The position numbers and the translations under genes were made by a program. Below are positions 5,013-31,714 of a stretch of 64,000 nucleotides of DNA, piece by piece (position 1 is the stretch's first letter; every line of letters starts with the position of its first letter). Source of the DNA: a virus; the IMG/VR virus record IMGVR_UViG_3300012952_000020, positions 1 through 64,000 of that record; one strand, written 5' to 3'. The notes beneath the pieces were generated by a model that was not told the origin of the DNA, searched no databases, and saw nothing but the letters and a program-made list of their open reading frames with translations.

Positions 5013-5240
5013 CTACCACTTGCTACCTCGGCTCCGCTTCTTGTCCGGTGGGGTCCATCCTTCCTCCCTCATATCACCCTGTATCTCACGGCGAAAGGAC
5101 TTGTCCCACAGATGTTCGAGCCAAGTTTTCACTGTATCCGGGTGAAGGTCGGGCAAAGACTTAGAACGTATTGCTCGACGGACAAACCTTACATCGCTTC
5201 CCGCAAGTGCGGCAACTTGTTCTTCCGATAAGTCCTTCAT
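5013..5240 (-). CDS. Hypothetical protein
   Basis: 75 aa; ATGA overlap with terminase stop. Confidence 0.6.
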   Translation of the reverse strand: MKDLSEEQVAALAGSDVRFVRRAIRSKSLPDLHPDTVKTWLEHLWDKSFRREIQGDMREEGWTPPDKKRSRGSKW

Positions 5241-6937
5241 CTACGTTTACCTCGTCTGCCGCCTTCACGGAACCAAGCCTTTGATCTCTGGTAGTTACCA
5301 CCGATATTCAGACCTCTGCCCATGAGCGGGTTAGCGATCACCTCGGCATCGCCGTAGGCTCCGTGCTGCACAGCATAGTTGAGCAACATCAACGAATCCG
5401 GGTAGTCATCGTGAGCCGAGCCGCCTCCTGATTTAGACCCCTTCGGAGCACGAATGTCCATGTACTTGCCCTTCCACCGCTTCTCCAGATCATAGAGTTG
5501 CTGAACGAAGCGACGGTACTTGGTCATCTTACGAGCGCCTTGTCCCGCAGGGTAGGTCAGACGTTTGGCACGTAGATCCTGATAGAGCAACTGGTATCCA
5601 CGGTGTTTCGACTTCTGATTGAATACGAACGGGATGACGTGTACGTCCTTTAGATCCGACCTAAGACGCGATGCGATGGGATCGCCTCGTCCGGTAGCAT
5701 CTACGATCAATGTCCCTACGTTATAGTTCCGTAGGAACTCCAGTATTTGCGGATACTGAGACTCGTGGTCGTCACCTTGGATCTCCAGCCAGTTCATTAC
5801 ATGAACGTAGTATCTATCTTCACCTGAGACTCGTTGCGGGTTGTCCCACCATACACGACCGACCGTAAGGACCGTAGAGTCATGGGAACGCCCAATGTCG
5901 AGTGACGCTACTTGGTTCACCGTAGACCGATCTTGCGTCCCCGGATAATCTGGACGGACAAAGGTTAGGAGATTGCCGCTCTTGTCCTTGGACTTGAGTA
6001 TGTCCCGCTTCTTGATGCCACAGGAGTCCAGCATCTCTGGAGGGATGAATACACCACGCTCCAATAGCCAGTGAAGCCTGTAGGACATGCGGAAGTCGTC
6101 CGAGTCATAGCCCAGTCGCTCTACCTCTTTGTCGATGTACTTACGATACCGAGGATTCCATCTGGCAGCGTGTTCGTAGTCGTACTCGAAATGGGTCTGC
6201 ACTTCTCCCGGTTTCAGTATTGCTGCCTTCTTGCGCCCACGCTCGCACGCATCATAGAAGTCGTTACGGTGAGGCGAGGGAGTGCCGATCTTCACGATGG
6301 ACGCGTTAGTAGCCGCACCCATTGGGTGGATGGACTTACGAATCTTGTAGTTGCCGATGTCCTGTGTCTCTTCACACAAGATCAGGTGATAGGTCTTCCC
6401 CTCGATGTGGGACTGTGGACCCGCAGAGTTACAGTCACAGAAGCTACCGTTAGGAAGGCGCAACGACTTTCTTCCCGGTCGTAGGCGTATGCCAATATCA
6501 GGGTCAGCCAAGACCTGCGCCATGTCTGCGCTGTTCATACGAGCAGCCATTCGACTGTGCATGATGGCACCCAACTCGTAGGTAGGAGCGAAGATGCCGC
6601 ACCAGAACCCATCCTTGTATTTGTTGATACGGTCGTCCTCGTTCAAGCCGGGTACGGTCGCCAAGGTCGGTAGGATCACCATTAGACCCACTGTGACCAC
6701 CGCAACCGTTTCGGTCTTGCCGGACTGACGCGCAAAGAGAGCCGTGATCTCCTCACCCTCTCCCAGAATCACCGATTGACAGATTCTACGTCCAAACTCT
6801 TGTTGGTAGGGGTACAGCGAAATGCCGCTCGCCTCCATACAGAACTTGAACGCCTTTTCTGCCACGTCCAGAAGCTCATCCCTCGAAAGGGTATGACGCT
6901 CCTCTGCCACCTTGTACTGCTCAATAGCTTGGGCCAT
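5237..6937 (-). CDS. terL: Terminase large subunit
   Basis: LYPYQ, ARQSGKT Walker A, GTP coupling motif, nuclease acidic motifs LDIGRSHD, DATG, HDDYPDS. Confidence 0.93.
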   Translation of the reverse strand: MAQAIEQYKVAEERHTLSRDELLDVAEKAFKFCMEASGISLYPYQQEFGRRICQSVILGEGEEITALFARQSGKTETVAVVTVGLMVILPTLATVPGLNEDDRINKYKDGFWCGIFAPTYELGAIMHSRMAARMNSADMAQVLADPDIGIRLRPGRKSLRLPNGSFCDCNSAGPQSHIEGKTYHLILCEETQDIGNYKIRKSIHPMGAATNASIVKIGTPSPHRNDFYDACERGRKKAAILKPGEVQTHFEYDYEHAARWNPRYRKYIDKEVERLGYDSDDFRMSYRLHWLLERGVFIPPEMLDSCGIKKRDILKSKDKSGNLLTFVRPDYPGTQDRSTVNQVASLDIGRSHDSTVLTVGRVWWDNPQRVSGEDRYYVHVMNWLEIQGDDHESQYPQILEFLRNYNVGTLIVDATGRGDPIASRLRSDLKDVHVIPFVFNQKSKHRGYQLLYQDLRAKRLTYPAGQGARKMTKYRRFVQQLYDLEKRWKGKYMDIRAPKGSKSGGGSAHDDYPDSLMLLNYAVQHGAYGDAEVIANPLMGRGLNIGGNYQRSKAWFREGGRRGKRR

Positions 6938-11985: not shown

Positions 11986-12026
11986 GGTTTCCTCCTGCCT
12001 TTCGGCGTTCACTGAATCGGGTGTCT

Positions 12027-12094
12027 GCCTCGTCAGCACCGGGGTAACAAATCCCCGATGTACCCGTCGCCTCCTTGGGACGACGAGTTTCGGC
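12027..12094 (-). ncRNA. Hammerhead ribozyme, type II (HHR-1)
   Basis: gcc GAAA CUCGUCGUC-loop-GGCGACGGG UA/ CAUCGGGG-loop-CCCCGGUG CUGACGA ggc: full core, three stems; predicted cut after 12061 (GUA). Confidence 0.85.
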
Positions 12095-12102
12095 TATGGT
12101 TT

Positions 12103-12378
12103 CTACGATTGCTTGAAGTACAGGATCTTCCAATCCGAGTCAGGTTCCGTCGCCTTGGACAGCCACCGCTTCAAGGTCTGCTTTTGCACACCCATCATGT
12201 CCGATGCCATGTCCAAGTTGCCGCCCTTCGCCTCGATGTGGTTGAGAGCACCGATTGCCCTCTCCCGCTGATACTGGGTGTAGCTGATCCTTCTCGCCAC
12301 ACCGTTCAGCCTTCGTGCGTGTCCGTGCATTTCAATACAGATCGCAATCACCTCGTCGCCGGACAACTTCTTACTCAT
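12103..12378 (-). CDS. HTH-containing protein
   Basis: NLDMASDMMGVQKQTLKRW helix-turn-helix pattern. Confidence 0.6.
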   Translation of the reverse strand: MSKKLSGDEVIAICIEMHGHARRLNGVARRISYTQYQRERAIGALNHIEAKGGNLDMASDMMGVQKQTLKRWLSKATEPDSDWKILYFKQS

Positions 12379-13060
12379 CGCCGCCTTCCTCTACCGCTGG
12401 GTGCCTTGCAGCATCCTCGATAGCCTGACGTTGTTCCTCGATCCGAGCCTTGATTGCCTCCTGTTCTTCACGAACCTCCCAAGGAGGACGTTTCTCAGCC
12501 CGACGCCAATCGTGCTCCCAGCCAGCCCGCATACCCAAAATCGTCTCCTTCGGTACTGCGTGCTCCGTTCGCTCTGCGAGGTCGTGAACCGACAGCCCGC
12601 CGTCCAACATGTCCAAGACGTGAACTCGAACCTCGTGGGCATCTGCCAGTCGGAAGTACGGCTCCATTGTCCACCGCTTGTCGAACGTGTTGTGGACGAC
12701 GATGAGGTCAGCCTTGTTCTCACCAAACAGTCGGTCCACCTCGTCAGCGCACCAGCGATGAGCCTTACCGAGAAGATGACCGCTCCAGCGATACTCGACC
12801 TCTCCGTAAGACGCTGGGTCAAGCCGCTGGTCGTACTGATCCGGGTCTTCGATTGTTGCCATCTGACTACGGCGAACATCAATCACCGGGTCGTCATCCT
12901 TCAACCGCTTCTTCAACCCTTCCGGGGGTGTGCCTTTGTACAGGCACATGTAGTCATCCGCTGACCGCATGAACCTTCGGTCGTTGTCTCCGCAGATCAA
13001 CCTCGCCATTGAGGTCTTTCCTGATCCGCTCAATCCTCTCAACAATATCAACGTCTTCAT
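12371..13060 (-). CDS. P-loop kinase (AAA_33 / N4BP2-like, polynucleotide-kinase type)
   Basis: LILLRGLSGSGKT, SADDY, VVHNTF, HAVPKETI. Confidence 0.8.
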   Translation of the reverse strand: MKTLILLRGLSGSGKTSMARLICGDNDRRFMRSADDYMCLYKGTPPEGLKKRLKDDDPVIDVRRSQMATIEDPDQYDQRLDPASYGEVEYRWSGHLLGKAHRWCADEVDRLFGENKADLIVVHNTFDKRWTMEPYFRLADAHEVRVHVLDMLDGGLSVHDLAERTEHAVPKETILGMRAGWEHDWRRAEKRPPWEVREEQEAIKARIEEQRQAIEDAARHPAVEEGGDE

Positions 13061-14112
13061 ACTTTCTCTCCGATTGTGTGACTGCCGACGGCTCTCGCAC
13101 TGTCGATGGTGCAGTCCTGTTGTTGTTTATCCTGATGCCACTCTACAAAGTTGGGGTGACGGACGGCACCGTTGGGAAAGACTCCCTTTCCGTTCACCTT
13201 GAATACCCTCCCGACGAACTTGCCGGGATTGTCAAACATCTCCGTTCGCTGTGCCTCGGTCAAGCCGGAAACGCGAACCGCCTCCTTCAACTCTCCCTCG
13301 ACGTACAGACCTCCGATGACTGACTTGACCATGCGCCCCTTGTACTTGTCTGCGTTGCTCTGCCGGAATCCCATGCAGACATAATCGACTTCGTACGTGC
13401 GCTTGATTCTCGCCCAGCCCTCTCCGAAGGGTGCCGATCCCTCTTTCAGAATCAGCCCCTCCCAATCCTCTGCCAGAACCCAATCAGCCCAGATTCGCTG
13501 TACCAAGTCCGTGATGCCCTCGTCCCGAGAAGTCCTCCACTGCGGTATGCACTGGATTCGACCTCGCGACGTGACCGACAGGGGATTCGGTGACGAGTGG
13601 GTCGCAATCGACGGAAGCCCCGCTGACGGCTTGCCGAAAACAACCTGCTCCAGAAACGCCCGCCGTGTCCATTGGGGCTTGTCTCGGAAACACTGCCCTC
13701 CGAACTCCACCAAGTCGAAGGCCATGAACTGACCTGTCAACTTTCGCCGCTTCGACCAGTTGGTGCCGAACATGAACTCCCCGTGAAGCACGATCCGACT
13801 CCCGCCGACTGCGTACCCCGTGTCGTCCTCTCCCGAGTCCCGAAAGTAGCCCCAAGGACTGAATGGGACCGCCAGCTTGAACTCATCCTTCAAGGTTCCG
13901 TTTCGGGAGTAGACCTTGACCGAGGTTCCCTCAATCACCATCTGCCCCCAGATGCCATCGCCTTTCAACTCAACGACGTTCCAAGGTGGCTCCGGGTTGC
14001 CCTTCCACTGGAGGACGCTCTGCCCTGCCGCCTCGTACTTGAATCGTACGTTGGTGAACTTCGGACGGTTCAGAACCATCCCCTCGTAGACCTTCTGCTT
14101 GGTTCCCATCAC
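13057..14112 (-). CDS. ATP-dependent DNA ligase
   Basis: Motif I ELKGDG, LHGE, AFDL, EGLILK, OB-fold C-terminus with RHP. Confidence 0.85.
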   Translation of the reverse strand: MMGTKQKVYEGMVLNRPKFTNVRFKYEAAGQSVLQWKGNPEPPWNVVELKGDGIWGQMVIEGTSVKVYSRNGTLKDEFKLAVPFSPWGYFRDSGEDDTGYAVGGSRIVLHGEFMFGTNWSKRRKLTGQFMAFDLVEFGGQCFRDKPQWTRRAFLEQVVFGKPSAGLPSIATHSSPNPLSVTSRGRIQCIPQWRTSRDEGITDLVQRIWADWVLAEDWEGLILKEGSAPFGEGWARIKRTYEVDYVCMGFRQSNADKYKGRMVKSVIGGLYVEGELKEAVRVSGLTEAQRTEMFDNPGKFVGRVFKVNGKGVFPNGAVRHPNFVEWHQDKQQQDCTIDSARAVGSHTIGEKV

Positions 14113-14534
14113 TCACCTCCTTCGACTGGTCGTCGGTACTCGGTGGGGAGTTCCACGACCTCCCCGTCATTTGTGACGCCGAGGTGCTCGTGCTCGTTCT
14201 CCCCTCCCCAGTCATTCAAGTCCTCTGCAATCTCCGGGATCGTGAACATCACGTTTGCCCGAACAGCGCCGTTGCTTTCGGGGTCCATCGCCGTGATGGT
14301 CCTTGCCCCGATGTACCCGTCGTACCTCGCCAGCGCCAAACTGTCGTTCTCACCTTCCAGCAACTCCCGCATACGCTCTGCGAGCCTTGCAACGGCGATG
14401 CCCATGTCCGTCAGACGTTTGCGTGGGGAGTAGTCGAGGAAGTCCTCACCGCACTCCGTAAACTCCCCACTCATTTCATCGACCAGCCTATCGACCATGA
14501 TCTCAATGTCCTCTCGTTCCAAGTTGCTACTCAT
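14109..14534 (-). CDS. Hypothetical protein
   Basis: 141 aa, translationally coupled. Confidence 0.65.
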   Translation of the reverse strand: MSSNLEREDIEIMVDRLVDEMSGEFTECGEDFLDYSPRKRLTDMGIAVARLAERMRELLEGENDSLALARYDGYIGARTITAMDPESNGAVRANVMFTIPEIAEDLNDWGGENEHEHLGVTNDGEVVELPTEYRRPVEGGE

Positions 14535-15265
14535 TTCGCACCTCGCTTGCCGAACGCCTGCTCGACTTCTTCCTGTGACTCAAACCGTTTGAGGACCATT
14601 TGGGTCAACGTACCCTCTGGCGTGATTGCCGCCTCCGTCAGACTCTCTTTCAAGACTTGAAGGAACGGTGTGCTCGCTATCCGGGCAACACCGTTAGCCT
14701 TGTTCGCCTTGGCACAGTGCTCCGGGTCTTCCGTCGAGAACCACGTACGGCAGTTCCAAGGACGGTGCTCGTAGACTGAACAGGCACCATCGACCAACAG
14801 TGGACAGGGCGTGTTCGATGCCTGCGCTTCCCTGAACATCGCCTTCGCCGTGCGCTTGTCATCCTTCTCCAGCATCCTTCGGACATGCCGTGGACCGAAC
14901 AACGCTTTTCGGAAGTAACCTTCCTTGTCCTTGATTGGCGACTGCCCAGCGAACCGTTCCATCCACTCTGACATGTTGTCCTTGACCCGAAGACGAACTG
15001 GCTCCGGCAGGTTGTGGATTGCCACCGTCAGGACAATCGCCTCTGCCGGATTGATCTCGACGCGCTCGTAGCAACAGGCTGTGCAGCCTACGCCGAGGCA
15101 CTTGATTTCCGAGAGGCTTCCGTCTGCCTTCATCCTCTCGACCATACGGTCTGCCTGTTGAAACAGACCCATCACGAACTCGTAGACACGCTCCGTGATG
15201 TCCTCTCCGTCTGGTCCTTCGACCAGCGGCTTGCCGCCCACTCGGGGCATAATCAACTCATCCAT
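14531..15265 (-). CDS. YkgJ-family cysteine-cluster protein
   Basis: CLGVGCTACC ... CPLLVDGACSVYEHRPWNCR. Confidence 0.85.
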   Translation of the reverse strand: MDELIMPRVGGKPLVEGPDGEDITERVYEFVMGLFQQADRMVERMKADGSLSEIKCLGVGCTACCYERVEINPAEAIVLTVAIHNLPEPVRLRVKDNMSEWMERFAGQSPIKDKEGYFRKALFGPRHVRRMLEKDDKRTAKAMFREAQASNTPCPLLVDGACSVYEHRPWNCRTWFSTEDPEHCAKANKANGVARIASTPFLQVLKESLTEAAITPEGTLTQMVLKRFESQEEVEQAFGKRGAK

Positions 15266-15524
15266 TGGACACTCCTTTCAGTCCGGCTTGCTCGATGCTC
15301 GCCATCTTCCTGTTGAACTCGACCTTGGTGATGTGGGTTCCGATTGCCGAGCGCACGGTCAAGAAGATGCGCCAAGGTGTCATACCGAACTCGATGGTTG
15401 CCTGATCTACGAGATTCACCAGCGCCCTTGTTTGCTCGTCGGTGGAGCAGGGCCAAGCGAACCTCAACCAATCTCCGAACGTCGGGGCCTTGCCCAACGT
15501 CGGTTCCTTGTGTTTCGTACTCAT
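15258..15524 (-). CDS. Hypothetical protein
   Basis: GGAGG RBS, ATGA coupling. Confidence 0.6.
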   Translation of the reverse strand: MSTKHKEPTLGKAPTFGDWLRFAWPCSTDEQTRALVNLVDQATIEFGMTPWRIFLTVRSAIGTHITKVEFNRKMASIEQAGLKGVSNG

Positions 15525-15925
15525 GCTGTCCTCCACTGCACTGTGGAGCGGAGCCATTTCCAAAGCCGGATGTACCAAGGGAGCCTGACGACCAGCGGTG
15601 CCGGGTGCGTCTTGCTCTCCTTCCACTCAAGGAACGGGACGCCGGGATCGACTCTCCTATACATGGCGTACTCCCTGCGGAGCATCGCCGTTCGACTGAC
15701 CGTTCGGTACGACCAGCCTCCGTTGCCGTGGTACTTGCTCCACCCGTGTTGGGGAATACCGACCTGCAACCCAGCCTTGACGCACATGTCCCATACGCCT
15801 GACTTGGTTCGCCGTTGTCCTCCAGGTCCAGTGCTGGTGACTGGACCGAACACGAATGAACCGTCCTCCAACTCCGTCAGCCAAGGGATGCCTGTGTTCG
15901 TTGGTTCTCCAGTAGCCGCCCTCAT
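15521..15925 (-). CDS. Hypothetical protein
   Basis: 134 aa, coupled. Confidence 0.6.
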   Translation of the reverse strand: MRAATGEPTNTGIPWLTELEDGSFVFGPVTSTGPGGQRRTKSGVWDMCVKAGLQVGIPQHGWSKYHGNGGWSYRTVSRTAMLRREYAMYRRVDPGVPFLEWKESKTHPAPLVVRLPWYIRLWKWLRSTVQWRTA

Positions 15926-16116
15926 TGGACACCTCCCTTCTCCAAGTCACGCTTGTAGGACTGTGCCTGCATCCGTGAGCACCCACTGACGATGGGTCGG
16001 GCTTCTCCGTGAAAGACAACCCCTCGGTGTCCTTTGGGGAGATCCGACTTGCGGAAGACCGCCCAACTGTAACTGTCATCGCCATTGAACTTTCGCAACG
16101 TGTATGCCGGTTTCAT
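15922..16116 (-). CDS. Hypothetical protein
   Basis: MKPAYTLRKFNGDDSYSWAVF...; coupled. Confidence 0.6.
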   Translation of the reverse strand: MKPAYTLRKFNGDDSYSWAVFRKSDLPKGHRGVVFHGEARPIVSGCSRMQAQSYKRDLEKGGVQ

Positions 16117-16343
16117 TCGACACCCCCGTTCTGCTCGACGTAGCACTCCTCGTACGCTGCCTTGTGACCTTCGTACGTGAAGTTGACTCCTGCATCTTCC
16201 AGCTTCGCCGTGGCACAGTCGTAAGCCGACCACCAGCGAGCCTCCTTTGCCGGTTGCGCTACCAGAATCCAGTAGCCCAATCCGACAACCACGATGGCTG
16301 CAAAGAACAGCCCTGCCAACAGTTCCTTTGTGCGCTCGCTCAT
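16113..16343 (-). CDS. Small membrane protein
   Basis: N-terminal hydrophobic helix. Confidence 0.65.
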   Translation of the reverse strand: MSERTKELLAGLFFAAIVVVGLGYWILVAQPAKEARWWSAYDCATAKLEDAGVNFTYEGHKAAYEECYVEQNGGVE

Positions 16344-16600
16344 GCTTCACCTCCACCGAAATACTCTGTGGAGTAGGTGACGATCCAAGGAGCGTTGCCC
16401 GCACCTTTCTGCATCGCCTTGTAGATGCACGTTTCACCGAGGAACGCGACGATGGTTCCTGCGTCCTTGTCGTGCTCGACCTTGAAGCCCTCAAGCCACA
16501 CCATGTGCTTCACGAGGTCCATCACCTCCTTGTGGGTTCCGAGGCACGAACGCCTTGGGCGTACTGGACTGTTTGCAAATCCTTTTACTGCTGCTTCCAT
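16340..16600 (-). CDS. Hypothetical protein
   Basis: GGAGG RBS. Confidence 0.65.
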   Translation of the reverse strand: MEAAVKGFANSPVRPRRSCLGTHKEVMDLVKHMVWLEGFKVEHDKDAGTIVAFLGETCIYKAMQKGAGNAPWIVTYSTEYFGGGEA

Positions 16601-16655
16601 TTTACTATCCTCCGTCCTCTCGGACTTCTTCGGGTAGGTTTACCCTTGTTTGTCA

Positions 16656-16721
16656 ATGACCTGTCTCATCAGCACGGGGAGGTCATCTTCCGTGGACTCC
16701 CCCCGAAGGGGGAGTTTCGAC
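16656..16721 (-). ncRNA. Hammerhead ribozyme, type II with pseudoknot (HHR-2)
   Basis: guc GAAA CUCCCCC UUCG GGGGGAG UC/ CACGG..AUGACCU..CCGUG CUGAUGA gac AGGUCAU; loop I pairs 7 bp with the 3' tail; cut after 16695 (GUC). Confidence 0.92.
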
Positions 16722-16723
16722 TG

Positions 16724-18112
16724 TTACTTCTTCCGCTGCTGCAACAGGTGAATCATCGCCTGCGTAGCAAGGTCCAACTGCCGACGCTCATGGGCAACGT
16801 CACCGTCATCCCCTGCGAGGTGAGCGACCTCGTGGAACATGACCTCGATGGTGTCTGCCAAGTTGCCGACCGTCTTCCGACTCAGGCAGATGACCTTCTC
16901 CCCTGACTTGAAGGTGCCTCGCACATCATCACCCTCGAACTCCACGACGTTCACATGTGAGAGCACGTCGTACTCGAAAGTGTCCGTTGCGTCCGTTGCC
17001 TGAATCAACCTGCACGCATCGTCGATGTTCTCCTGCTCCTGATCCGTCAGGTCATCCCAACTGTACGTCTGCGTGACCGTCATCCTCCCGTCCCGCTTGG
17101 CGAGGTGGAAGCCTTTGATCCGGGTGTCCTGCTCCAGAACCTCCAATCGGCTTCTGCCTACCACAACGCCCTTCTTGCCAACGTGTGCCAGCTCCTTGGC
17201 TTGGGACAGGTTCTCAACTGGAACTGCGCCTTCACCGTGCTTCCCGAGGAACCGATCTCCGATGTGCTTGACCACTGTGGAATCGTTGACGAAAGCGTAA
17301 GCCTGCTGCGCCTCCATCGCATTGGGATTGTCCAGCACCGCTTCGACGTGATCCCCGAACTCATCCGGCTCATCCCTGAAAGCGGCGACGGTCAGCTTGC
17401 CCAGCGCCCACTTCAAATCCCACTCGTCCACCAACTCACGGTCACGATTGGTTGCCCGTCGGAGGTCGTACCCGTAGGACAGATTGTCCGGTCGCTGCAT
17501 CACCAGCACGCCCTTGTTGAAGATCATGCCCTTGAACTCAGGCTGGAGTAGAATCCGCTCGCCCTCGTACCCGACCGTCTTCACCTTCTCCGGGTCGAAC
17601 GCCTCGTTGGTGAACAGGAACCGATTGCGGAGAGCATCGTACTCCTCCTGCGATACCCCGTACACCTTGACCAAGAACCCTTCACGCGGGTTCTTCAACT
17701 TTCGTGTACGGATGTGGAGCGTGTGACAGTCGAGGTCGCCGTGATGCCTAATCTCGGGAATCCACTGCTCGTCCATGTTCCGAATCACCATGTGGTATCG
17801 GCTCGACCGAGCGATGGTCAACATCGCCATCGGCAGTCCCTCTCCGAACTCACCAATCAGGTTTGCATCACTGCGGGAACCCGAATGGCCCATCGCCATC
17901 GCCTCTGCCGGAACCTTGATACCGAAGTTGTAGATGTTGACGCAGCCGACGAATCCCTGATGCTCCTGCTTCGGGTGAAACTCGACTTTCAGCTTGCCGA
18001 GTCCGTCATGCCTGCTCTCCTCTCCGTCCTTGCCGTTCGCCATCAACTCTCGCAGTGCGTGGTTGATGTTCCATCCCGGCTGATAGTTCATATCCAGTGT
18101 CGTCTTGATCAT
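16724..18112 (-). CDS. GHKL (HATPase-like) ATPase with C-terminal HExxH metallopeptidase-like domain
   Basis: RELMANGKD N-box, IGEFGEGL G-box, C-terminal MFHEVAH..H. Confidence 0.75.
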   Translation of the reverse strand: MIKTTLDMNYQPGWNINHALRELMANGKDGEESRHDGLGKLKVEFHPKQEHQGFVGCVNIYNFGIKVPAEAMAMGHSGSRSDANLIGEFGEGLPMAMLTIARSSRYHMVIRNMDEQWIPEIRHHGDLDCHTLHIRTRKLKNPREGFLVKVYGVSQEEYDALRNRFLFTNEAFDPEKVKTVGYEGERILLQPEFKGMIFNKGVLVMQRPDNLSYGYDLRRATNRDRELVDEWDLKWALGKLTVAAFRDEPDEFGDHVEAVLDNPNAMEAQQAYAFVNDSTVVKHIGDRFLGKHGEGAVPVENLSQAKELAHVGKKGVVVGRSRLEVLEQDTRIKGFHLAKRDGRMTVTQTYSWDDLTDQEQENIDDACRLIQATDATDTFEYDVLSHVNVVEFEGDDVRGTFKSGEKVICLSRKTVGNLADTIEVMFHEVAHLAGDDGDVAHERRQLDLATQAMIHLLQQRKK

Positions 18113-18168
18113 GCTACTTTTCCTCCGTCCGTACCCTCCCCTCGGAGGGTGTTGGACTTCTATGGTTA

Positions 18169-18230
18169 CTCCCCTGTCTCATCAGTACAGGTAGGGGAAA
18201 CTTCCTGTAGACCCCGTTAGGGGTTTCGAC
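18169..18230 (-). ncRNA. Hammerhead ribozyme, type II with pseudoknot (HHR-3)
   Basis: guc GAAA CCCC UAAC GGGG UC/ UACAGG..UUCCCCU..CCUGUA CUGAUGA gac AGGGGAG; 7-bp loop I/tail pairing; cut after 18210 (GUC). Confidence 0.92.
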
Positions 18231-19258
18231 TATTTCTTGCTCGCCTTGCGCCTGATGTACTTGGCGTTCGCAGCCACTCGCTGCGACCTCGACTTCTTCT
18301 CGACCTTGACCGTTTCCTTCGCCACTCGAATCTTGGCTCCTGCGCCCTTCTCGATTGCGAAAGCGTGTGCCTTCGCCTCGGCATCGGCTCCGGTGAACCT
18401 CCACCACTTCCGACCGCCCTTGACCTTCACCTCGTACCCGACGACCTTCTCGTACGTCTCCGTCGCTGGTCTGCGCTTGGGCAACGCCGACTGCCCCTTG
18501 GCATCTGCGTACCTTGCCCGCTTCCCACTGTGCCAGCACTTCTTGGGACCGACTCGCTTCTTGTGAGCCTCGACATCCTCGGGGGCGAAGAACTCTGCCG
18601 TTGCCACCAACCCTGTCGTCTTCTTGCTCCAGTCCCACACGGCTGGGAGGACTGCCAACTTCCTTCCCCACTTGTCGGTACGCCACTTGGGTTCGTTGAT
18701 GTTGTACTTGGGTACGTCTGCGGCTTCAATAACTGGGATGCGTACGAACACGATGGCGGGTGACTCGCAGGCGACCACGACCTCCAGAATGTACTTGTCA
18801 GCACCGGGCATCCGACTGATTCGGTGGGCGAAGTCCTTTCGGAAGTAGTCCTTGACCACGACCCACCGGCTACCGAGAAGGCACTTGTTTCCGCTCACCG
18901 TATCGGCAACCTTCTCCGTGCGCTTCGCCCTCGCAGCCTTCTTCCGACGACGGGTTGCTGTGGCCCGCTTCGCTGCTGACCGTCGGACCTTCTTCATCAC
19001 GAACTTCTCAGCCTCGGTGTACACCTCGTCCTGCGTGTCGTGGTCTGCCTTGTTCACTGCGGCGACTGCTGCGGTGACCAACTGGTAGAATGTTTCCTCG
19101 TCCCTGTCGGGATTGCACTTGGGGTCGTTCTCGTTCGCCTTGTGGAACTTCGCACCCCACTTGGCGATCCACTTGTTGTGTCGCTCCGTGGGGGTCACGC
19201 CACGGGAGGTGGTCTGGTCAGTCCCCAAACCGGGCATTGAGTTTCCGAGGCCGATCAT
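18230..19258 (-). CDS. Lys/Arg-rich hypothetical protein
   Basis: 342 aa, GGAGG RBS. Confidence 0.75.
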   Translation of the reverse strand: MIGLGNSMPGLGTDQTTSRGVTPTERHNKWIAKWGAKFHKANENDPKCNPDRDEETFYQLVTAAVAAVNKADHDTQDEVYTEAEKFVMKKVRRSAAKRATATRRRKKAARAKRTEKVADTVSGNKCLLGSRWVVVKDYFRKDFAHRISRMPGADKYILEVVVACESPAIVFVRIPVIEAADVPKYNINEPKWRTDKWGRKLAVLPAVWDWSKKTTGLVATAEFFAPEDVEAHKKRVGPKKCWHSGKRARYADAKGQSALPKRRPATETYEKVVGYEVKVKGGRKWWRFTGADAEAKAHAFAIEKGAGAKIRVAKETVKVEKKSRSQRVAANAKYIRRKASKK

Positions 19259-19431: not shown

Positions 19432-19509
19432 TCGATCCTCCTGCCTTTCGGCTTTCTACGGTTTTCATAGAGACTGCGTCTTTATCTCTTTCTCAATCTC
19501 TATATATAT

Positions 19510-19538
19510 AATATAGCATGTTTACAGGGGTTTGTCAA
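19510..19538 (-). promoter_or_regulatory. Strong sigma70-type promoter of the early operon
   Basis: TTGACA-N17-TATATT with TG extension; A-rich upstream. Confidence 0.8.
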
Positions 19539-19591: not shown

Positions 19592-20056
19592 CTACGATTT
19601 TTGACCCGGAAGCTGGATCAAACCGTGCCGCATGTGAAACGCTGACTCTCCGGGGCCGGGAAACTCATCCGACACCCAAACTTCGACTCGTGGCTCTCCT
19701 CCAACCTCGGCGTAGACCTTGAGCGTGGCTCCCGCTACCACCTGTGAATCGTCCGTCCAACAATCCTTCATGGCGTCCAGCACGATCTTCCTGATGTTGT
19801 CCATGTCCGGTCGAACGGTGGCCCAAAGAAATCCTTTGTGGTCCTTCTTCCGATGGTACTTCTTCGGTCGGGGTAGGACCGCGAGAATGTCAACTCGTAC
19901 TGGACCCTCCAGCTTCTCCGTGATTGCCGCCCGAGCGAAGATACCAGCCTTGGTTTCCCACTGCTTCGTACGCTTGGGCGTGTACATCCCAAAGCGCCCT
20001 TGCCTCGGTCGTCCCTTTCCTATCGGAGCCAACTGGATTGTGAACTTCTCCCTCAC
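19592..20056 (-). CDS. rusA: RusA-like Holliday junction resolvase
   Basis: KGRPR, RPDMDNIRKIVLD, DDSQV. Confidence 0.9.
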   Translation of the reverse strand: MREKFTIQLAPIGKGRPRQGRFGMYTPKRTKQWETKAGIFARAAITEKLEGPVRVDILAVLPRPKKYHRKKDHKGFLWATVRPDMDNIRKIVLDAMKDCWTDDSQVVAGATLKVYAEVGGEPRVEVWVSDEFPGPGESAFHMRHGLIQLPGQKS

Positions 20057-20436
20057 TCCTTCCCCCAAAGGCTCGGCAGGTACTTGCGCCACTGGAACCA
20101 AGGTCGCTCATACAGGTACAGGGTTTGGGAGTCGTGGTTGTACGCTTCCACCTCAAACGGATTCATCCTGTATGCCTTCTTCCCGCTGCGGTGCGTCACC
20201 AACCCGATGAGGAAGAACAGCCCGTACAGAATCCACTGAAACACGAATAGCAACTCCAACTGCTGCCTGTAGTGGATCGTTTCGTGCCTCCGCGTCCGTT
20301 CGTTCATTTCGCCTCGACACCAAACAAAGAAGCCGATGCTGATTGCCCAAATCTCAATGGGTGCAACCTTGCTCAACCAAACTGGAACCTTGCTGTTCTC
20401 CACCATGATGGGTGACAGCCACTTCTTGCCTTCCAT
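20053..20436 (-). CDS. HExxH (zincin-like) hypothetical protein
   Basis: RRHETIHYRQ ... NPFEVEAY. Confidence 0.7.
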   Translation of the reverse strand: MEGKKWLSPIMVENSKVPVWLSKVAPIEIWAISIGFFVWCRGEMNERTRRHETIHYRQQLELLFVFQWILYGLFFLIGLVTHRSGKKAYRMNPFEVEAYNHDSQTLYLYERPWFQWRKYLPSLWGKE

Positions 20437-22013
20437 TACTCACCTTCTGGATCGGGGTGTGATACCGATACCGATGTTGCCTCAATGACCTTCGCCGTGT
20501 TTGTAAGCCTGACCTCTTGTGGAGCACCTGACTCACCGAACTGGTCGAGAGGACTGTTATCCTCTGTCTTCAACGACTCTGCTGGACTGGTCCCTCCTGC
20601 CCTACCGTAGCCGCCGAACATCTTGGCGATGATGCCTGAGCCTTTCGCCTCGATCTTGATTGTGTCCCTGTCGTCGGTCATAGCCTTTATCTGCCCGCAC
20701 AGCCCGACAAAGTTCTTCAACTCCTTGGACACCTCCGGGTCGAGAAGACCGCCTTTGACACGCTCCGTAGCCAACGCAAACTGTAGCCTGTCGAACGCCT
20801 GCGTCATTAGCTGACGGAGCATCGACCCGAGATCGCCTGTCGTGGGTTGACCCGCTGCGTCTACAGGAGTGAACGGGACCGTACACTCTGAACCTTGCTT
20901 GAAGAACGGACACTTATCTGCGATGTAGCACTGGTCACACCATCGACCAATCTTCGCCGTCTGATCCAACTCCCGCTTTTCGGGCATCGCCAAAGCCGTG
21001 ATCTGCGGTCCTTCATCCAACGCCTTCACTACAGGATCGTTACGGTGCTGCATGTCGATGACGGTTTGGTACTCACACCAGACCGCCGCGTTGTACCTAT
21101 TGACTGCGTACGGATCGTCAGACACCAACTCGTCGTGACTGATGTGGTACTTCTCGCACATGTCCTTGATCCATGGATTCGTCCTACGAATGTCCTTGTT
21201 CTTACTGTCAGCCGTTTTCAACTCGTTGCCTTTGAGGTGGTACGTCACTCCGTACTGCTGCCCCGCCAGCCAAGAGGTTGAATCCACAGAGTAGAACGAG
21301 AGGTTCCTAAAGACCTCCTTGTTCGTCATGGCGAATCCGTGAACCGGCTTCTGGTACTTGTTCGACATAGCCAGCAACGGCAGGTAGTCATCCCGAGGCC
21401 AACCACCAGCGAGTCCCAGATACTTCATGTTCGGGTTCTTACACCACTCTTCCCAAATGAGCATCCGAGCCGCTTGCCTCTGCGGTGCCGCGTCGTTCTG
21501 TGCATCCCAGCCTGACTCGCCTCCGAGAAGACCACGAGTAACCAGCGTGTTGTACTCGATGGACTTGTGATACACCGGGACCGGGTAGACCTCATCTGCC
21601 CACATGTCATCGCGCCATTTACGGACCTTGCCCATACCGACGCCTTTGACAGCACCAATATCCAGTTCAACGTACTCGTTGAAAAACTCCCCGTACTCCT
21701 TCAACCATGCGTGGTACTTCCGCATGTATTCTTCCGGGGCATCCGTCTTCTGCGTTGTGCCTTGTTTGTGCTTGAACAGCGACGTGCTCAACTGACCGTG
21801 AGCCGAGAAGAACGTGTGAGCGCCAGAGTCGAGCATACACCACGCATCGATCTCCTTCATCTTCTCCAGCAAGGCGTGAAGCGTCGCCTTCTTCATACGC
21901 TTCATGTAGAAATACGACATGAGGATCTGCAACGGCTTGTCCGTGTACTGCCCTACATGGCACAAGTCCTTGAAGTGACTCTGACTTTGCGCTCCTGCGA
22001 GTAGTACCCTCAT
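20436..22013 (-). CDS. TGT-fold guanine transglycosylase (DpdA-like) with C-terminal Cys4 domain
   Basis: MLDSGAHT, ELDI, PVYH, VHGFA, SVDSTSW; then CDQC-x5-C-x8-C. Confidence 0.75.
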   Translation of the reverse strand: MRVLLAGAQSQSHFKDLCHVGQYTDKPLQILMSYFYMKRMKKATLHALLEKMKEIDAWCMLDSGAHTFFSAHGQLSTSLFKHKQGTTQKTDAPEEYMRKYHAWLKEYGEFFNEYVELDIGAVKGVGMGKVRKWRDDMWADEVYPVPVYHKSIEYNTLVTRGLLGGESGWDAQNDAAPQRQAARMLIWEEWCKNPNMKYLGLAGGWPRDDYLPLLAMSNKYQKPVHGFAMTNKEVFRNLSFYSVDSTSWLAGQQYGVTYHLKGNELKTADSKNKDIRRTNPWIKDMCEKYHISHDELVSDDPYAVNRYNAAVWCEYQTVIDMQHRNDPVVKALDEGPQITALAMPEKRELDQTAKIGRWCDQCYIADKCPFFKQGSECTVPFTPVDAAGQPTTGDLGSMLRQLMTQAFDRLQFALATERVKGGLLDPEVSKELKNFVGLCGQIKAMTDDRDTIKIEAKGSGIIAKMFGGYGRAGGTSPAESLKTEDNSPLDQFGESGAPQEVRLTNTAKVIEATSVSVSHPDPEGE

Positions 22014-31243: not shown

Positions 31244-31714
31244 TCAATAAATCCTTGCACTGTTTTTGTCGTTCTCACGAACCTCAACTGAATGAAGCCA
31301 CACGCGACCGCCTGTTTCCTGTAGAAGCCAGTCATCGACCCACTTCTTGACAAACTCACAGGTTCCTTCCATGCCCACATCCTCGTACACTACGAGTTTG
31401 CAAGCACCCTTGGATTCCAGTTCCCTAAACTGTGGTATCAGCGGGTCGTCAGAATCCAAAAGCAACGTGTGATCGAACACGTCCTCCAGCCACGCTTTGA
31501 CAGCCTTCAGTTTCCCGAAGTCCATAACGAAGCCGTTTTCTGTTCGCTCCTTGGCACGAAACCAAAAGGTGAAACTTCTGCTGTACCCATGCACCAAAGC
31601 ACAATGGTCACTGTGCTTGTGGCGGCGATGAGCACAAGGAAAGTTCCTGAACGTCTTTGACGACTCTATCACTGGGTGGTCGCTTGACTCGCTTCTTTTG
31701 CCCGTCAGCCACAT
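31244..31714 (-). CDS. queD: 6-carboxytetrahydropterin synthase (start uncertain, possibly GTG 31672)
   Basis: CAHR, HCALVHGY, GFVMDFG, FDHTLL, VEVRE. Confidence 0.92.
   Translation of the reverse strand: MWLTGKRSESSDHPVIESSKTFRNFPCAHRRHKHSDHCALVHGYSRSFTFWFRAKERTENGFVMDFGKLKAVKAWLEDVFDHTLLLDSDDPLIPQFRELESKGACKLVVYEDVGMEGTCEFVKKWVDDWLLQETGGRVWLHSVEVRENDKNSARIY

What the first reader, a model, noticed from the sequence alone, without database searches (positions are those of the whole stretch)
16656..18230. A single GHKL-ATPase/HExxH gene bracketed by two ribozymes
Seen: HHR-3 and HHR-2 flank exactly one ORF; double cleavage would release a 1515-nt RNA (18209 to 16695) holding RBS, full ORF and stop. 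The protein joins a GHKL N-terminus to a zincin-like HEVAH C-terminus. Inference: a separately stabilised, possibly circular, mRNA for an ATP-dependent protease-like host-takeover or anti-defence factor; or a ribozyme-flanked mobile cassette.
Basis: partly seen in the sequence, partly recalled or inferred. Interest (0 to 1): 0.75.

Follow-up and report, generated by a model that had tools for sequence, protein, structure and literature searches.

The report
Ribozyme-flanked phage ATPase-protease gene
In an uncultured marine phage, two self-cutting hammerhead RNA motifs sit on either side of one gene, an already published way for phages to chop long messages into single-gene pieces; the gene itself encodes an uncharacterised but widespread phage protein that joins an Hsp90-like ATPase to a Wss1/SprT-like zinc protease.

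Summary
The window is a 77.5-kb IMG/VR phage record with its genes on the minus strand. It carries three type II hammerheads on that strand. Each starts at or within 7 nt of a stop codon and is followed by an RBS and ATG. A strict structural scan found 3, against a mean of 0.01 in 200 shuffles.

HHR-3 (18168-18231) and HHR-2 (16655-16722) bracket only ORF 16724-18112. Cutting at both would give a 1515-nt RNA (18209-16695).

The layout is published: Perreault 2011 describes clustered hammerheads flanking single prophage genes. This scan has also noted it many times.

The bracket is not tied to the gene. Hammerheads occur near it in 3 of 51 homologue loci, in varying slots, and never on both sides.

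Nothing supports a circle or a mobile cassette. Only a 3-bp stem II would hold the ends together, GC content is flat, and the same gene order exists without ribozymes.

The protein reading holds. Residues 1-290 are a GHKL fold plus transducer (TRAP1 Z 12.7, GRP94 Z 11.9). Residues 349-460 are a Wss1-like zincin (Z 9.8) with a conserved HExxH. The family is large and mostly viral, with 1283 50%-identity clusters at E<=1e-30. Its function is unknown, and the adenine-binding Asp is replaced by Asn or Thr.

Verdict: a new member of a known kind, of modest interest.

The parts
18168..18231 (-). HHR-3, a type II hammerhead. It begins with the AG of the TAG stop (18232-18230) of the upstream 342-aa ORF. 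The predicted cut is between C18210 and U18209. Loop I (UUUCCCCU) is complementary to the 3' tail (AGGGGAG), the usual type II pseudoknot.
   Evidence: RF02276 at 29.5 bits, E 1.9e-5, below the gathering score of 37. Core and stems of 5 and 6 bp. The MFE fold pairs loop I with the tail. The pseudoknot was read by eye.
18113..18209 (-). 97-nt leader of the released RNA: stem I hairpin, CUGAUGA, stem II 3' strand, pseudoknot tail, a CCCUCC/GGAGGG hairpin, and RBS GGAGG at 18126-18122.
   Evidence: Sequence; fold (z -1.77, not significant).
16724..18112 (-). ORF of 462 aa. Residues 1 to about 170 are a Bergerat (GHKL) fold, about 170-290 a transducer-like domain, about 290-348 a linker, and 349-460 a Wss1/SprT-like zincin (HEVAH 427-431, D436, H441).
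   Evidence: phrog_6077, 9.3e-42; pLDDT 87.3.
16655..16722 (-). HHR-2, a type II hammerhead that starts 1 nt after the TAA stop (16726-16724). The predicted cut is between C16695 and C16694. Loop I AUGACCU pairs with tail AGGUCAU as a pseudoknot.
   Evidence: RF02276 at 40.1 bits, above the gathering score of 37. Stems of 9 and 5 bp. The MFE fold pairs loop I with the tail.
12019..12095 (-). HHR-1, a type II hammerhead with a CUGACGA core and a GUA cut site (A12061/C12060). It lies 7 nt after the TAG stop (12105-12103) of a 91-aa ORF and is followed by AGGAGG and ATG 11985. It closes the next segment, 16694..12061, about 4.6 kb.
   Evidence: RF02276 at 34.7 bits, below gathering. Stems of 10 and 8 bp. 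Sequence.
18230..19258 (-). Upstream ORF of 342 aa with no family match. Its stop overlaps the start of HHR-3. Homologues sit upstream of the GHKL gene in L011 and in L004/L008/L009.
19510..19538 (-). Sigma-70-like promoter match (TTGACA-17-TATATT, 11 of 12, with TG), a possible start of the transcript that the hammerheads cut. No terminator-like site lies on the minus strand between 11500 and 19500.
   Evidence: One promoter-like site was found against 2.3 expected, so it is a consensus match only.

Best explanation
Three canonical type II hammerhead ribozymes punctuate a long minus-strand phage transcript that has no intrinsic terminators. This transcript lies in the DNA-metabolism region, between RusA/DpdA and the terminase.

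Each ribozyme sits directly after a stop codon and ahead of the next gene's leader and RBS. Self-cleavage therefore cuts the polycistronic RNA into segments.

The HHR-3/HHR-2 pair yields a linear 1515-nt monocistronic mRNA:
- Its 5' end is a 5'-OH followed by the stem I hairpin and pseudoknot.
- Its 3' end is the stem III hairpin with a 2',3'-cyclic phosphate.

This would uncouple the stability and translation of this gene from its neighbours. That step is inferred.

The hammerheads belong to the operon architecture of this phage lineage, not to the gene.

The gene encodes a member of a large, mostly viral, uncharacterised family (phrog_6077 / MPN635_N-type). An Hsp90/sacsin-like GHKL nucleotide-binding fold plus transducer is fused to a Wss1/SprT-like zinc protease with an intact HExxH. 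The most likely action is a nucleotide-gated protease working on DNA-bound or client proteins during infection. This is inferred from the domains only.
For: RNA:
- All three motifs carry the full core, the A15.1-U16.1 pair, a non-G at the cut site, and paired positions next to the core. These are the acceptance rules quoted from Perreault 2011.
- The strict scan found 3 hits against 0.01 expected.
- All three lie on the coding strand, in gaps between genes, 0-7 nt after a stop codon.
- No minus-strand terminator-like site lies between 11500 and 19500.
- A related hammerhead occupies the same slot in L011, right after the stop of the homologue of the 342-aa ORF.
- The L007 and L012 hammerheads are 74 of 85 identical. 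They differ by 2 compensatory and 2 one-sided pair changes, and every pair is kept.
- Published precedent: clustered hammerheads flank single genes or short blocks in prophages and cleave in vitro and in E. coli (PMC3088659). Type II hammerheads near phage-like genes cleave in vivo (PMC8782182).

Protein:
- AF2 model with pLDDT 87.3.
- GHKL plus transducer: TRAP1 Z 12.7; GRP94 Z 11.9 (242 aligned, 5.0 A); ParE and T6 topo II ATPase Z 11.1. Foldseek gives Hsp90 at E 3e-8.
- C-terminal domain modelled alone: pLDDT 93. Wss1 Z 9.8 (107 of 128 aligned, 2.9 A). All matches with Z >= 5.3 are zincins or YbeY.
- E22, N26, D29, GEFGEG 87-92 and NRDR 222-225 are conserved.
- HATPase_c hits in 5 of 16 homologues and SprT-like hits in 5 of 16.
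Against: - No RNA evidence of any kind. No RNA run holds the locus.
- Two of the three hammerheads score below Rfam's gathering score.
- The bracket is not conserved. 0 of 14 homologue loci with both flanks have any hammerhead, and 0 of 22 further viral loci do.
- The claim about stability is inference.
- In the protein, the G1-box Asp that contacts adenine in GHKL ATPases is Asn62 here and Asn, Thr or Ser in relatives. ATP binding is therefore not assured.
- The protein itself has no Pfam hit. The Pfam hits in homologues are below the curated cut-offs, apart from HATPase_c and HATPase_c_3 in the distant P0017.
- 26 of 160 family members lack HExxH.
- No conserved gene neighbour points to a substrate.
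Confidence: 0.7

Rival explanations
1. The excised 1515-nt RNA is circularised, either by host RtcB or by the phage's own kinase-like protein and ligase, and is translated as a stable circular mRNA.
For: - Hammerhead products carry the 5'-OH and 2',3'-cyclic phosphate that RtcB-type ligases join (established knowledge).
- HHR-2 and HHR-3 share the same stem II strands (GUC/GAC). A junction would therefore rebuild a complete chimeric hammerhead (read).
- The next segment encodes an AAA_33 kinase-like protein and an ATP-dependent ligase.
Against: - In type II topology the two ends are held only by a 3-bp stem II, and the pseudoknot lies wholly within the 5' end. Self-ligation is therefore poorly supported (inference).
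- Perreault 2011 looked for circular or spliced products from prophage clusters and did not detect them.
- The bracket is not conserved in relatives.
- No RNA data exist.
Confidence: 0.06
2. The gene plus its ribozymes is a mobile, ribozyme-bounded cassette, in the manner of a retrozyme.
For: - Hammerhead-plus-leader modules look duplicated. L007 and L012 copies are 74 of 85 identical while their upstream flanks are unrelated, at 14 of 37.
- HHR-2 and HHR-3 share 20 of 23 nt around the core (family D15).
Against: - GC is 0.56-0.585 inside the gene, the same as its surroundings.
- No flanking direct repeats beyond the ribozyme cores.
- The same gene order occurs without hammerheads in L004/L008/L009.
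- Relatives have hammerheads in other slots: upstream of a two-gene block in L012, and with a 96-aa ORF in between in L011.
- What moves appears to be the ribozyme-plus-leader module, not the gene.
Confidence: 0.03
3. The hammerheads are regulatory rather than constitutive. Cleavage is tuned, for example by competition between pseudoknot and RBS pairing, to set the timing or level of the flanked gene.
For: - In the fold of the cleaved leader, loop I (UUUCCCC) pairs with the RBS region instead of with the tail.
- The HHR-1 tail (CCCGAU) can pair with the 5' strand of its own stem I (read by eye).
- Perreault 2011 raises regulated cleavage for phage hammerheads.
Against: The alternative fold is not better than shuffles (z -1.77). 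There is no covariation evidence for the alternative pairings, and nothing has been tested.
Confidence: 0.12
4. One or more of the motifs are inactive relics or chance look-alikes, and the bracket has no function.
For: HHR-3 and HHR-1 fall below Rfam's gathering score. The bracket is not conserved.
Against: The strict scan expects 0.01 hits by chance and found 3, all on the coding strand in intergenic gaps. The cores are fully canonical and pseudoknot partners are present.
Confidence: 0.07

Closest known systems
Clustered hammerhead ribozymes flanking single genes or short gene blocks in prophages (Perreault et al. 2011, PMC3088659; for example the A. tumefaciens triple arrangement around ardA)
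   Same: Several hammerheads lie on the coding strand in intergenic gaps of a phage operon and bracket one gene. The loop I-tail pseudoknot and very short stem II are shared. The proposed role is the same: processing long transcripts into gene-length mRNAs.
   Different: The flanked gene differs, and the paper itself says gene identities are not constant. This is an uncultured lytic-looking marine phage contig, and activity is untested.
Rfam RF02276 Hammerhead_II
   Same: Full-length matches (model positions 1-66) for all three motifs, with a canonical core.
   Different: Only HHR-2 passes the gathering score. HHR-1 (34.7 bits) and HHR-3 (29.5 bits) do not.
Hsp90/HtpG/TRAP1 and other GHKL ATPases (topo II/ParE ATPase, MORC, MutL)
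   Same: Bergerat fold plus transducer-like second domain. The N-box (E22, N26, D29), an Hsp90-like lid (SGSR) and a GxxGxG G2 box are present.
   Different: There is no Hsp90 C-terminal dimerisation domain. The G1-box Asp is replaced by Asn62. The protein is much shorter and is fused to a protease.
Wss1 / SprT (SPRTN) DNA-protein-crosslink proteases
   Same: The zincin fold is the best structural match (Wss1 Z 9.8), and HExxH is present with a downstream His.
   Different: Pfam SprT-like hits occur only in homologues and fall below the cut-off. The spacing to the third ligand is 10 residues to H441, with an invariant D436 as an alternative. No SHP, VIM or ubiquitin-related modules are present (this comparison is from recall). 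DNA dependence is unknown.
Tiamat / sacsin-like GHL defence ATPases (bioRxiv 10.64898/2026.09.30.754977, section 17 and passages read)
   Same: A GHL ATPase with an Hsp90-like transducer is combined with a Wss1-like metalloprotease fold in one polypeptide. NCBIfam's sacsin ATP-binding-like model hits 8 of 16 family members, below its cut-off.
   Different: Tiamat's Wss1-like fold lacks HExxH, and Tiamat carries TPR-like folds and a PD-(D/E)xK nuclease. Here HExxH is intact, there is no nuclease, the protein is only 462 aa, and it is phage-borne. PADLOC gave 0 of 16 hits.
phrog_6077 GHKL-only phage proteins (for example Acinetobacter phage ABPH49 'histidine kinase-like ATPase', Luteibacter phage Pluto 'histidine kinase')
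   Same: They are homologous over residues 1 to about 308 (23-29% identity) and lie in early or DNA-metabolism regions among small unknown ORFs.
   Different: The two cultured-phage proteins whose annotation was read are 357 and 398 aa by CDS coordinates, and no tblastn match reaches past about residue 310 of the query, so the zincin part is not matched.

Membership tests
Hammerhead ribozyme, type II (RF02276) | Conserved core CUGANGA ... GAAA, with a non-G nucleotide at the cleavage site | tested here: met
   All three motifs: CUGAUGA twice and CUGACGA once, CGAAA, and cut sites GUC, GUC and GUA.
Hammerhead ribozyme, type II (RF02276) | Stems I and III closed by hairpins and stem II open, with pairs directly next to the core intact (A15.1-U16.1, 1.1-2.1, 10.1-11.1) | tested here: met
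   Stem III is 5, 9 and 10 bp; stem I is 6, 5 and 8 bp; the first stem II pair is present in all three.
Hammerhead ribozyme, type II (RF02276) | Score at or above Rfam's gathering threshold of 37 bits | tested here: inconclusive
   HHR-2 scores 40.1 and passes. HHR-1 (34.7) and HHR-3 (29.5) do not.
Hammerhead ribozyme, type II (RF02276) | Self-cleavage activity | not testable with these tools
   No RNA run holds the locus, and no assay was possible.
Clustered gene-flanking hammerheads of prophages (Perreault 2011) | Several hammerheads on the gene strand, in intergenic gaps, bracketing single genes or short blocks in a phage genome | tested here: met
   Three hammerheads within 6.2 kb, all minus strand, each 0-7 nt after a stop codon. 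One segment holds a single gene. The phage context is shown.
GHKL (Bergerat-fold) ATPases | Bergerat fold | tested here: met
   VIA Z 8.3-12.7 to TRAP1, GRP94, ParE, topo II, MORC2, MutL and HtpG. Foldseek gives Hsp90 at E 3e-8.
GHKL (Bergerat-fold) ATPases | N-box with the catalytic Glu and the Mg-binding Asn | tested here: met
   E22 is kept in at least 90% of sequences. N26 and D29 are at least 90% in A1 and invariant in A5. The box aligns to the HtpG/TRAP1 N-box.
GHKL (Bergerat-fold) ATPases | G1-box Asp that contacts the adenine | tested here: not met
   The position is Asn62 here and Asn, Thr or Ser in relatives. It aligns to the Asp of HtpG's DNG.
GHKL (Bergerat-fold) ATPases | G2-box GxxGxG | tested here: met
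   G87, G90, E91 and G92 of GEFGEG 87-92 are invariant in A1 and A5; F89 in A1. GxFGxG occurs in 136 of 160 family members.
GHKL (Bergerat-fold) ATPases | Pfam HATPase_c above its cut-off | tested here: not met
   The protein itself has no hit. The best homologue scores 25.5 bits against a cut-off of 26.4. Only the distant 708-aa P0017 passes.
Wss1/SprT-like zincins | Zincin fold closest to Wss1/SprT | tested here: met
   Domain model: Wss1 5xbn Z 9.8 (107 of 128 aligned, 2.9 A), 5ln5 Z 8.1, SPRTN 6mdx Z 6.0. Whole model: the same Wss1 matches.
Wss1/SprT-like zincins | HExxH plus a third metal ligand | tested here: met
   HEVAH 427-431. HExxH is present in 11 of 11 sequences in A7 and 134 of 160 in the wider family. 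D436 is present in 11 of 11 and H441 in 9 of 11. Which residue is the third ligand is not settled.
Wss1/SprT-like zincins | Pfam SprT-like (PF10263) above its cut-off | tested here: not met
   The protein itself has no hit. Homologues score about 17-18 bits against a cut-off of 25.6.
Tiamat defence protein | Match to Tiamat models, and a C-terminal PD-(D/E)xK nuclease | tested here: not met
   PADLOC gave 0 of 16 hits. The protein ends with the zincin helix and has no nuclease domain.
Retrozyme or viroid-like hammerhead circular RNAs | Hammerhead halves that hold the RNA ends together through an extended helix, and a detected circular form | tested here: not met
   The motifs are type II, and the ends share only a 3-bp stem II. 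The circular form itself could not be tested.

The most novel reading that the evidence does not exclude
The ribozyme-insulated gene encodes an active-protease counterpart of the Tiamat/sacsin type of GHL protein. On this reading it is a compact, phage-borne, nucleotide-gated clamp. Its Wss1-like zincin would cleave DNA-bound proteins, either host defence or nucleoid proteins, or enzymes trapped on the phage's own modified DNA. Hammerhead processing would give it its own expression window. This would define a new class of phage ATP-dependent protease, present in over a thousand sequence clusters.
Probability: 0.25. Interest if true: 0.6.

Novelty: new member of a known kind. Interest (0 to 1): 0.33.

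Why it matters
The RNA layout adds one more clean example to a published pattern: hammerheads as punctuation marks in phage operons. This example has a tidy geometry of stop codon, ribozyme, then RBS.

The more useful outcome concerns the protein. A large, almost wholly viral and unnamed family turns out to combine an Hsp90/sacsin-like GHKL module with a Wss1/SprT-like zincin that keeps its active-site motif. A recently described defence protein, Tiamat, carries the same pair of folds but with a dead protease. Phages and hosts may therefore be using mirror-image versions of one architecture. This is easy to test with ATPase and protease assays and with point mutants.

Tried and rejected
- RNA evidence: the look-up of sequencing runs listed no RNA holder. 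Read laying was not used, because the holders are DNA contigs or small shares that cannot show RNA ends.
- Complex prediction, to test homodimerisation, was not available. Dimerisation is therefore unexamined.
- The Rfam E<=10 scan of the whole window missed HHR-3. It was recovered by pattern and by the per-record search.
- Other weak Rfam hits are far below their gathering scores and were treated as chance. They are fluoride riboswitch-like at 38984-39054 on the plus strand (22.9 against 34), mir-9428, sR30, c4-a1b1 and Ocean-VII.
- The structural scan gave one extra weak hit at 31446-31540 (-), with stems of 4 and 4 bp and a 62-nt stem III, inside a coding region. It was rejected.
- The relaxed scan of the 22 viral loci gave two long hits with non-canonical cores in L044 and L056. 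Both were rejected.
- Direct sequence searches gave nothing usable. phmmer against the PDB gave only a designed protein at E 0.55. The profile search against the PDB gave HtpG/TRAP1 at E 0.12-0.33, used only for motif register.
- The protein itself matched only DUF6782 in Pfam, at E 0.064.
- Genome contigs: no relative was found with the two peptide patterns used. This says little about distant prophage copies.
- Megablast of 20 kb of the window against the phage collection: no match.
- The broad 66-sequence alignment A5 was too diverse for the search for related loci. The 12-sequence alignment A6 was used instead.
- The upstream neighbour as a conserved partner: the L012 and L010 neighbours are unrelated to the 342-aa ORF.
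- Gene neighbourhoods in 19 viral loci (93 ORFs) showed no constant partner. A phrog_1967 helicase is adjacent in 3 loci.
- Literature: 'SprT' + 'GHKL' + 'phage' gave 2 papers, and neither describes this fusion in phages. 'MPN635' gave 1 irrelevant paper. 'hammerhead' + 'phage' + 'circular RNA' + 'RtcB' gave 8 papers, none on phage circular mRNAs judging by title and abstract.
- Figures and supplements of Perreault 2011 were not seen. Supplements of the Tiamat preprint are closed.
Full report
**What the window is.** The window is the first 64 kb of a 77,536-bp linear IMG/VR virus record that CheckV rates 78% complete. Almost every long ORF is on the minus strand. Read in the direction of transcription, PHROG and Pfam matches give this order:
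- a replication module (DnaB-like helicase, primase, DNA polymerase, helicase, UvsX-like recombinase);
- ParB-like protein, methyltransferases and a Cas4-like exonuclease;
- QueD, QueE and a DpdA-like transglycosylase (20436-22013), with sugar-handling enzymes among them;
- RusA (19592-20101);
- the region of the finding;
- a CxxCxxCC protein, an ATP-dependent ligase (13057-14112) and an AAA_33 kinase-like protein (12371-13060);
- terminase large subunit (5237-6937) and portal.

The record has no close relative in the phage collection. The only full holder among sequencing runs is a marine metagenome that may be its own source.

**The observation.** ORF 16724..18112 (-) encodes 462 aa, with GGAGG 9 nt before the ATG.
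- HHR-2: Rfam's Hammerhead_II model matches 16655-16722 (-) at 40.1 bits, above the gathering score of 37.
- HHR-3: the upstream motif was missed by the whole-window scan at E<=10. It is found by pattern and by the per-record search at 18168-18231 (-), with 29.5 bits and E 1.9e-5.
- HHR-1: a third copy lies at 12019-12095 (-), 34.7 bits.

All three have CGAAA, CUGAUGA or CUGACGA, and a GUC or GUA cut site. Stem III is 5, 9 and 10 bp and stem I is 6, 5 and 8 bp. The pairs next to the core are intact. These are the acceptance rules given in the methods of Perreault et al. 2011.

In HHR-2 and HHR-3, loop I is complementary to the tail just after stem II (AUGACCU/AGGUCAU and CCCCU/AGGGG). This is the pseudoknot typical of type II hammerheads. 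The free-energy fold even prefers this helix over stem I.

The loose motif alone is not significant: 12 of 100 shuffles reached 3 matches. A strict structural scan gives 3 hits against a mean of 0.01 in 200 dinucleotide shuffles, and none of the shuffles reached 3.

The predicted cuts after C18210 and C16695 give an RNA running 18209..16695.

**Anatomy of the punctuation.** Each hammerhead starts at or just after a stop codon.
- HHR-3 begins with the AG of the TAG stop of the 342-aa ORF.
- HHR-2 begins 1 nt after the TAA stop of the GHKL gene.
- HHR-1 begins 7 nt after a TAG stop.

Each is followed within about 45-100 nt by a strong RBS and an ATG. There is one strong sigma-70-like match at 19538-19510 (-), and no terminator-like site on the minus strand between 11500 and 19500. 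These are consensus matches only.

The simplest reading is one long transcript cut into three kinds of piece:
- an upstream piece ending with the 342-aa ORF;
- the single-gene 1515-nt piece;
- a piece of about 4.6 kb (16694..12061) holding some nine ORFs, including the ligase and the kinase-like protein;
- a downstream remainder running towards the packaging genes.

Each 3' end would carry the stem III hairpin and a 2',3'-cyclic phosphate. Each 5' end would carry a 5'-OH followed by the stem I hairpin. That this changes stability or translation is inference.

**Is the bracket tied to the gene?** No.

First set of loci. Relatives of the protein were fetched from viral and metagenome contigs: 29 loci, L004-L032. 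L004 and L009 are the same contig, and L008 carries the same protein.
- Rfam at E<=1 was run on 28 of the 29 loci. My structural scan was run on all 29.
- Both find a type II hammerhead on the gene strand in 3 loci.
- L007 (44% identity): 14 nt after the gene's stop.
- L011 (38%): right after the stop of a 274-aa ORF that is homologous to the window's 342-aa ORF. This is the HHR-3 slot, but a 96-aa ORF lies between it and the GHKL gene.
- L012 (46%): upstream of an unrelated 303-aa ORF that precedes the gene.
- Of the 14 loci with at least 300 nt upstream and 120 nt downstream, none has a hammerhead.
- L006, the closest relative at 47%, has 270 nt upstream and 2.4 kb downstream and has none.
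- L004/L008/L009 keep the gene order DpdA-like, RusA, homologue of the 342-aa ORF, GHKL gene, but have no ribozyme.

Second set of loci. A further 22 viral loci with 2.5-kb flanks were fetched. One of them is again the L004 contig. They gave 0 hammerheads by my scan of all 22 and by Rfam at gathering level on 20 of them.

In total, 3 of 51 loci have a hammerhead. All three are among the nearer relatives, and none has hammerheads on both sides.

L007 and L012 encode 93%-identical proteins. Their hammerheads are 74 of 85 identical, with two compensatory and two one-sided changes that keep every pair. The sequence upstream of them is unrelated (14 of 37), while the leader and start region downstream is shared. 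If the two contigs reflect one genome type, near-identical modules of hammerhead plus leader bracket a two-gene block there. What spreads therefore looks like the ribozyme-plus-leader module, not the gene.

GC content is the same inside and outside the gene. HHR-2 and HHR-3 share 20 of 23 nt around the core and the same stem II strands.

**Comparison with the literature.** Perreault et al. 2011 (PMC3088659; passages read, figures and supplements not seen) make these points:
- The gene identities are not constant.
- This implies processing of long phage transcripts into operon-length or single-gene-length mRNAs.
- Spliced or circular products were considered but not detected.
- Three such clusters cleaved in vitro, and one cleaved in E. 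coli.

Olzog et al. 2021 (PMC8782182; passages read) showed in vivo cleavage of three type II hammerheads near phage-like genes. This scan's own notes hold 433 hammerhead findings, with several phage operons punctuated in the same way. These notes are leads, not evidence. The RNA arrangement is thus a new instance of a known kind.

**Circular mRNA?** The two ends of the 1515-nt RNA could rebuild a chimeric hammerhead, because HHR-2 and HHR-3 share stem II (GUC/GAC). In type II topology, however, that 3-bp helix is the only pairing between the two cleavage products, and the pseudoknot lies wholly in the 5' end. Ribozyme-mediated religation is therefore poorly supported (inference). Ligation by RtcB, or by the phage's kinase-like protein and ligase, cannot be excluded. 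Nothing points to it either, and no RNA run is available.

**The protein.**
- Sequence matches. The protein matches phrog_6077 over residues 1-329 (E 9.3e-42). It has no Pfam family apart from a sub-threshold DUF6782 hit at E 0.064.
- Close homologues. Sixteen homologues of similar length (30-52% identity over the alignment) were aligned with it. Among the 16 sequences scanned, 5 hit HATPase_c and 5 hit SprT-like, all below the Pfam cut-offs. Eight hit NCBIfam's sacsin ATP-binding-like model, also below its cut-off. PADLOC gave none.
- Whole-protein model. The AF2 model is confident: pLDDT 87.3 and pTM 0.70. Foldseek ranks Hsp90 proteins first at E 3e-8, with TM only 0.38 because the model has several domains.
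- N-terminal part. The exhaustive structural search places residues 1 to about 290 on GHKL ATPases with their transducer domains. The matches are TRAP1 Z 12.7; GRP94 Z 11.9 (242 aligned, 5.0 A); ParE and T6 topoisomerase II ATPase Z 11.1; MORC2 Z 10.0; MutL Z 8.9.
- C-terminal part. The same search places residues 349-460 on Wss1 at Z 9.8 (109 aligned, 3.0 A). Modelled alone (pLDDT 93.0), the C-terminal domain again has Wss1 first: 5xbn Z 9.8 with 107 of 128 aligned at 2.9 A, and 5ln5 Z 8.1. Minigluzincins, YbeY and SPRTN (Z 6.0) follow.
- Conserved GHKL residues: E22, N26 and D29 (N-box), an Hsp90-like SGSR lid, GEFGEG 87-92, and an invariant NRDR 222-225 in the transducer-like part. NRDR is a candidate gamma-phosphate sensor by analogy (inference).
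- Conserved zincin residues: HEVAH 427-431, D436 and H441.
- A deviation: the G1-box Asp that contacts adenine in GHKL enzymes is Asn62 here, and Asn, Thr or Ser in relatives. Nucleotide use is likely but its specificity is open.

**Size and spread of the family.**
- A profile search of 1.84 billion representatives finds 3997 proteins at E<=0.001 and 1283 at E<=1e-30. The best 150 are all 431-544 aa, and most match nearly the full profile, zincin part included.
- Of 160 family sequences in hand (P0017 was dropped as a distant 708-aa form), 134 keep HExxH in the last 40% and 26 have lost it.
- ESM Atlas clusters nearest to the protein are 67-93% viral (Uroviricota) and carry PF25856 MPN635_N in 26-57% of members. 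Related clusters of about 480-500 aa are mostly from Bacillota.
- tblastn against cultured phages matches 92 records, and no match reaches past about residue 310 of the query. The two annotated proteins I looked at are 398 and 357 aa (by CDS coordinates) and are labelled histidine kinase-like ATPase.
- In 19 further viral loci the neighbours are mostly small unknown ORFs. A helicase is adjacent in 3 of them, and no partner is constant.

**What it probably does.** The domains suggest a nucleotide-operated GHKL module that gates or positions a Wss1/SprT-like protease. Wss1 and SPRTN cut proteins bound or crosslinked to DNA (established knowledge). Iyer et al. 2021 (PMC7824862, passages read) suggest that phage SprT-like and ArdC-like zincins target host proteins. 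They also note that rIIA-type phage proteins combine a GHKL domain with variable C-termini.

The Tiamat preprint (10.64898/2026.09.30.754977; section 17 and passages read, supplements closed) describes a defence protein with a sacsin/Hsp90-like ATPase, a transducer, and a Wss1-like fold that has lost HExxH, followed by a nuclease. The phage family here has the same two folds but with the protease motif intact and no nuclease. It is not a Tiamat member. I rate a role as a nucleotide-gated protease acting on DNA-associated or client proteins at about 0.4. Counter-defence specifically is lower. Dimerisation could not be tested.

**Verdict.** The RNA layout is ordinary for phages. The protein is a member of a big, unnamed, uncharacterised viral family with an architecture worth a bench test.

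Noticed in passing
window 12371-14112 (-): An AAA_33 kinase-like protein (with a weak polynucleotide-kinase PHROG hit) and an ATP-dependent ligase sit side by side inside the segment bounded by HHR-2 and HHR-1. Such a pair could in principle heal and seal 5'-OH ends, but it is more likely a DNA-repair pair.
   Followed up: no
window 11987-12012 and 19433-19458: A shared leader on the minus strand, GCCGAAAGGCAGGAGGA (a GAAA-loop hairpin plus RBS), precedes both the ORF after HHR-1 and the 58-aa ORF just downstream of the promoter-like site (families D2 and D5).
   Followed up: no
L007:1416-1499 and L012:2386-2461: Near-identical modules of hammerhead plus leader, RBS and start lie in different slots of two contigs whose GHKL proteins are 93% identical. 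Compensatory stem changes are present and the upstream flanks are unrelated. This suggests the ribozyme-plus-leader unit is duplicated as a block.
   Followed up: partly
window 12019-12060 (-): The HHR-1 tail (CCCGAU) is complementary to the 5' strand of its own stem I (AUCGGG). This is a possible alternative pairing that would compete with the active fold. It was seen by eye.
   Followed up: no
protein family (P0016, P0020, P0026 and others): 26 of 160 family members have lost HExxH while keeping the rest of the protein. This parallels the dead Wss1-like fold of Tiamat.
   Followed up: partly
ESM Atlas structure row 3: A cluster of 815-aa Ascomycota proteins aligns to the whole model, with TM 0.77 by the query and 441 residues aligned. 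The GHKL-plus-zincin arrangement may therefore also exist in fungi.
   Followed up: no
window 38984-39054 (+): A weak fluoride-riboswitch-like match (22.9 bits against a gathering score of 34, E 0.05) lies on the non-coding strand inside a gene. It is probably chance.
   Followed up: no
window 15265-16724 (-): Gene calls are ambiguous here. Arginine-rich 134-aa and 190-aa ORFs overlap smaller ORFs of 86 aa and 76 aa that have proper RBSs. The first gene after HHR-2 is most likely the 86-aa ORF starting at 16600.
   Followed up: no
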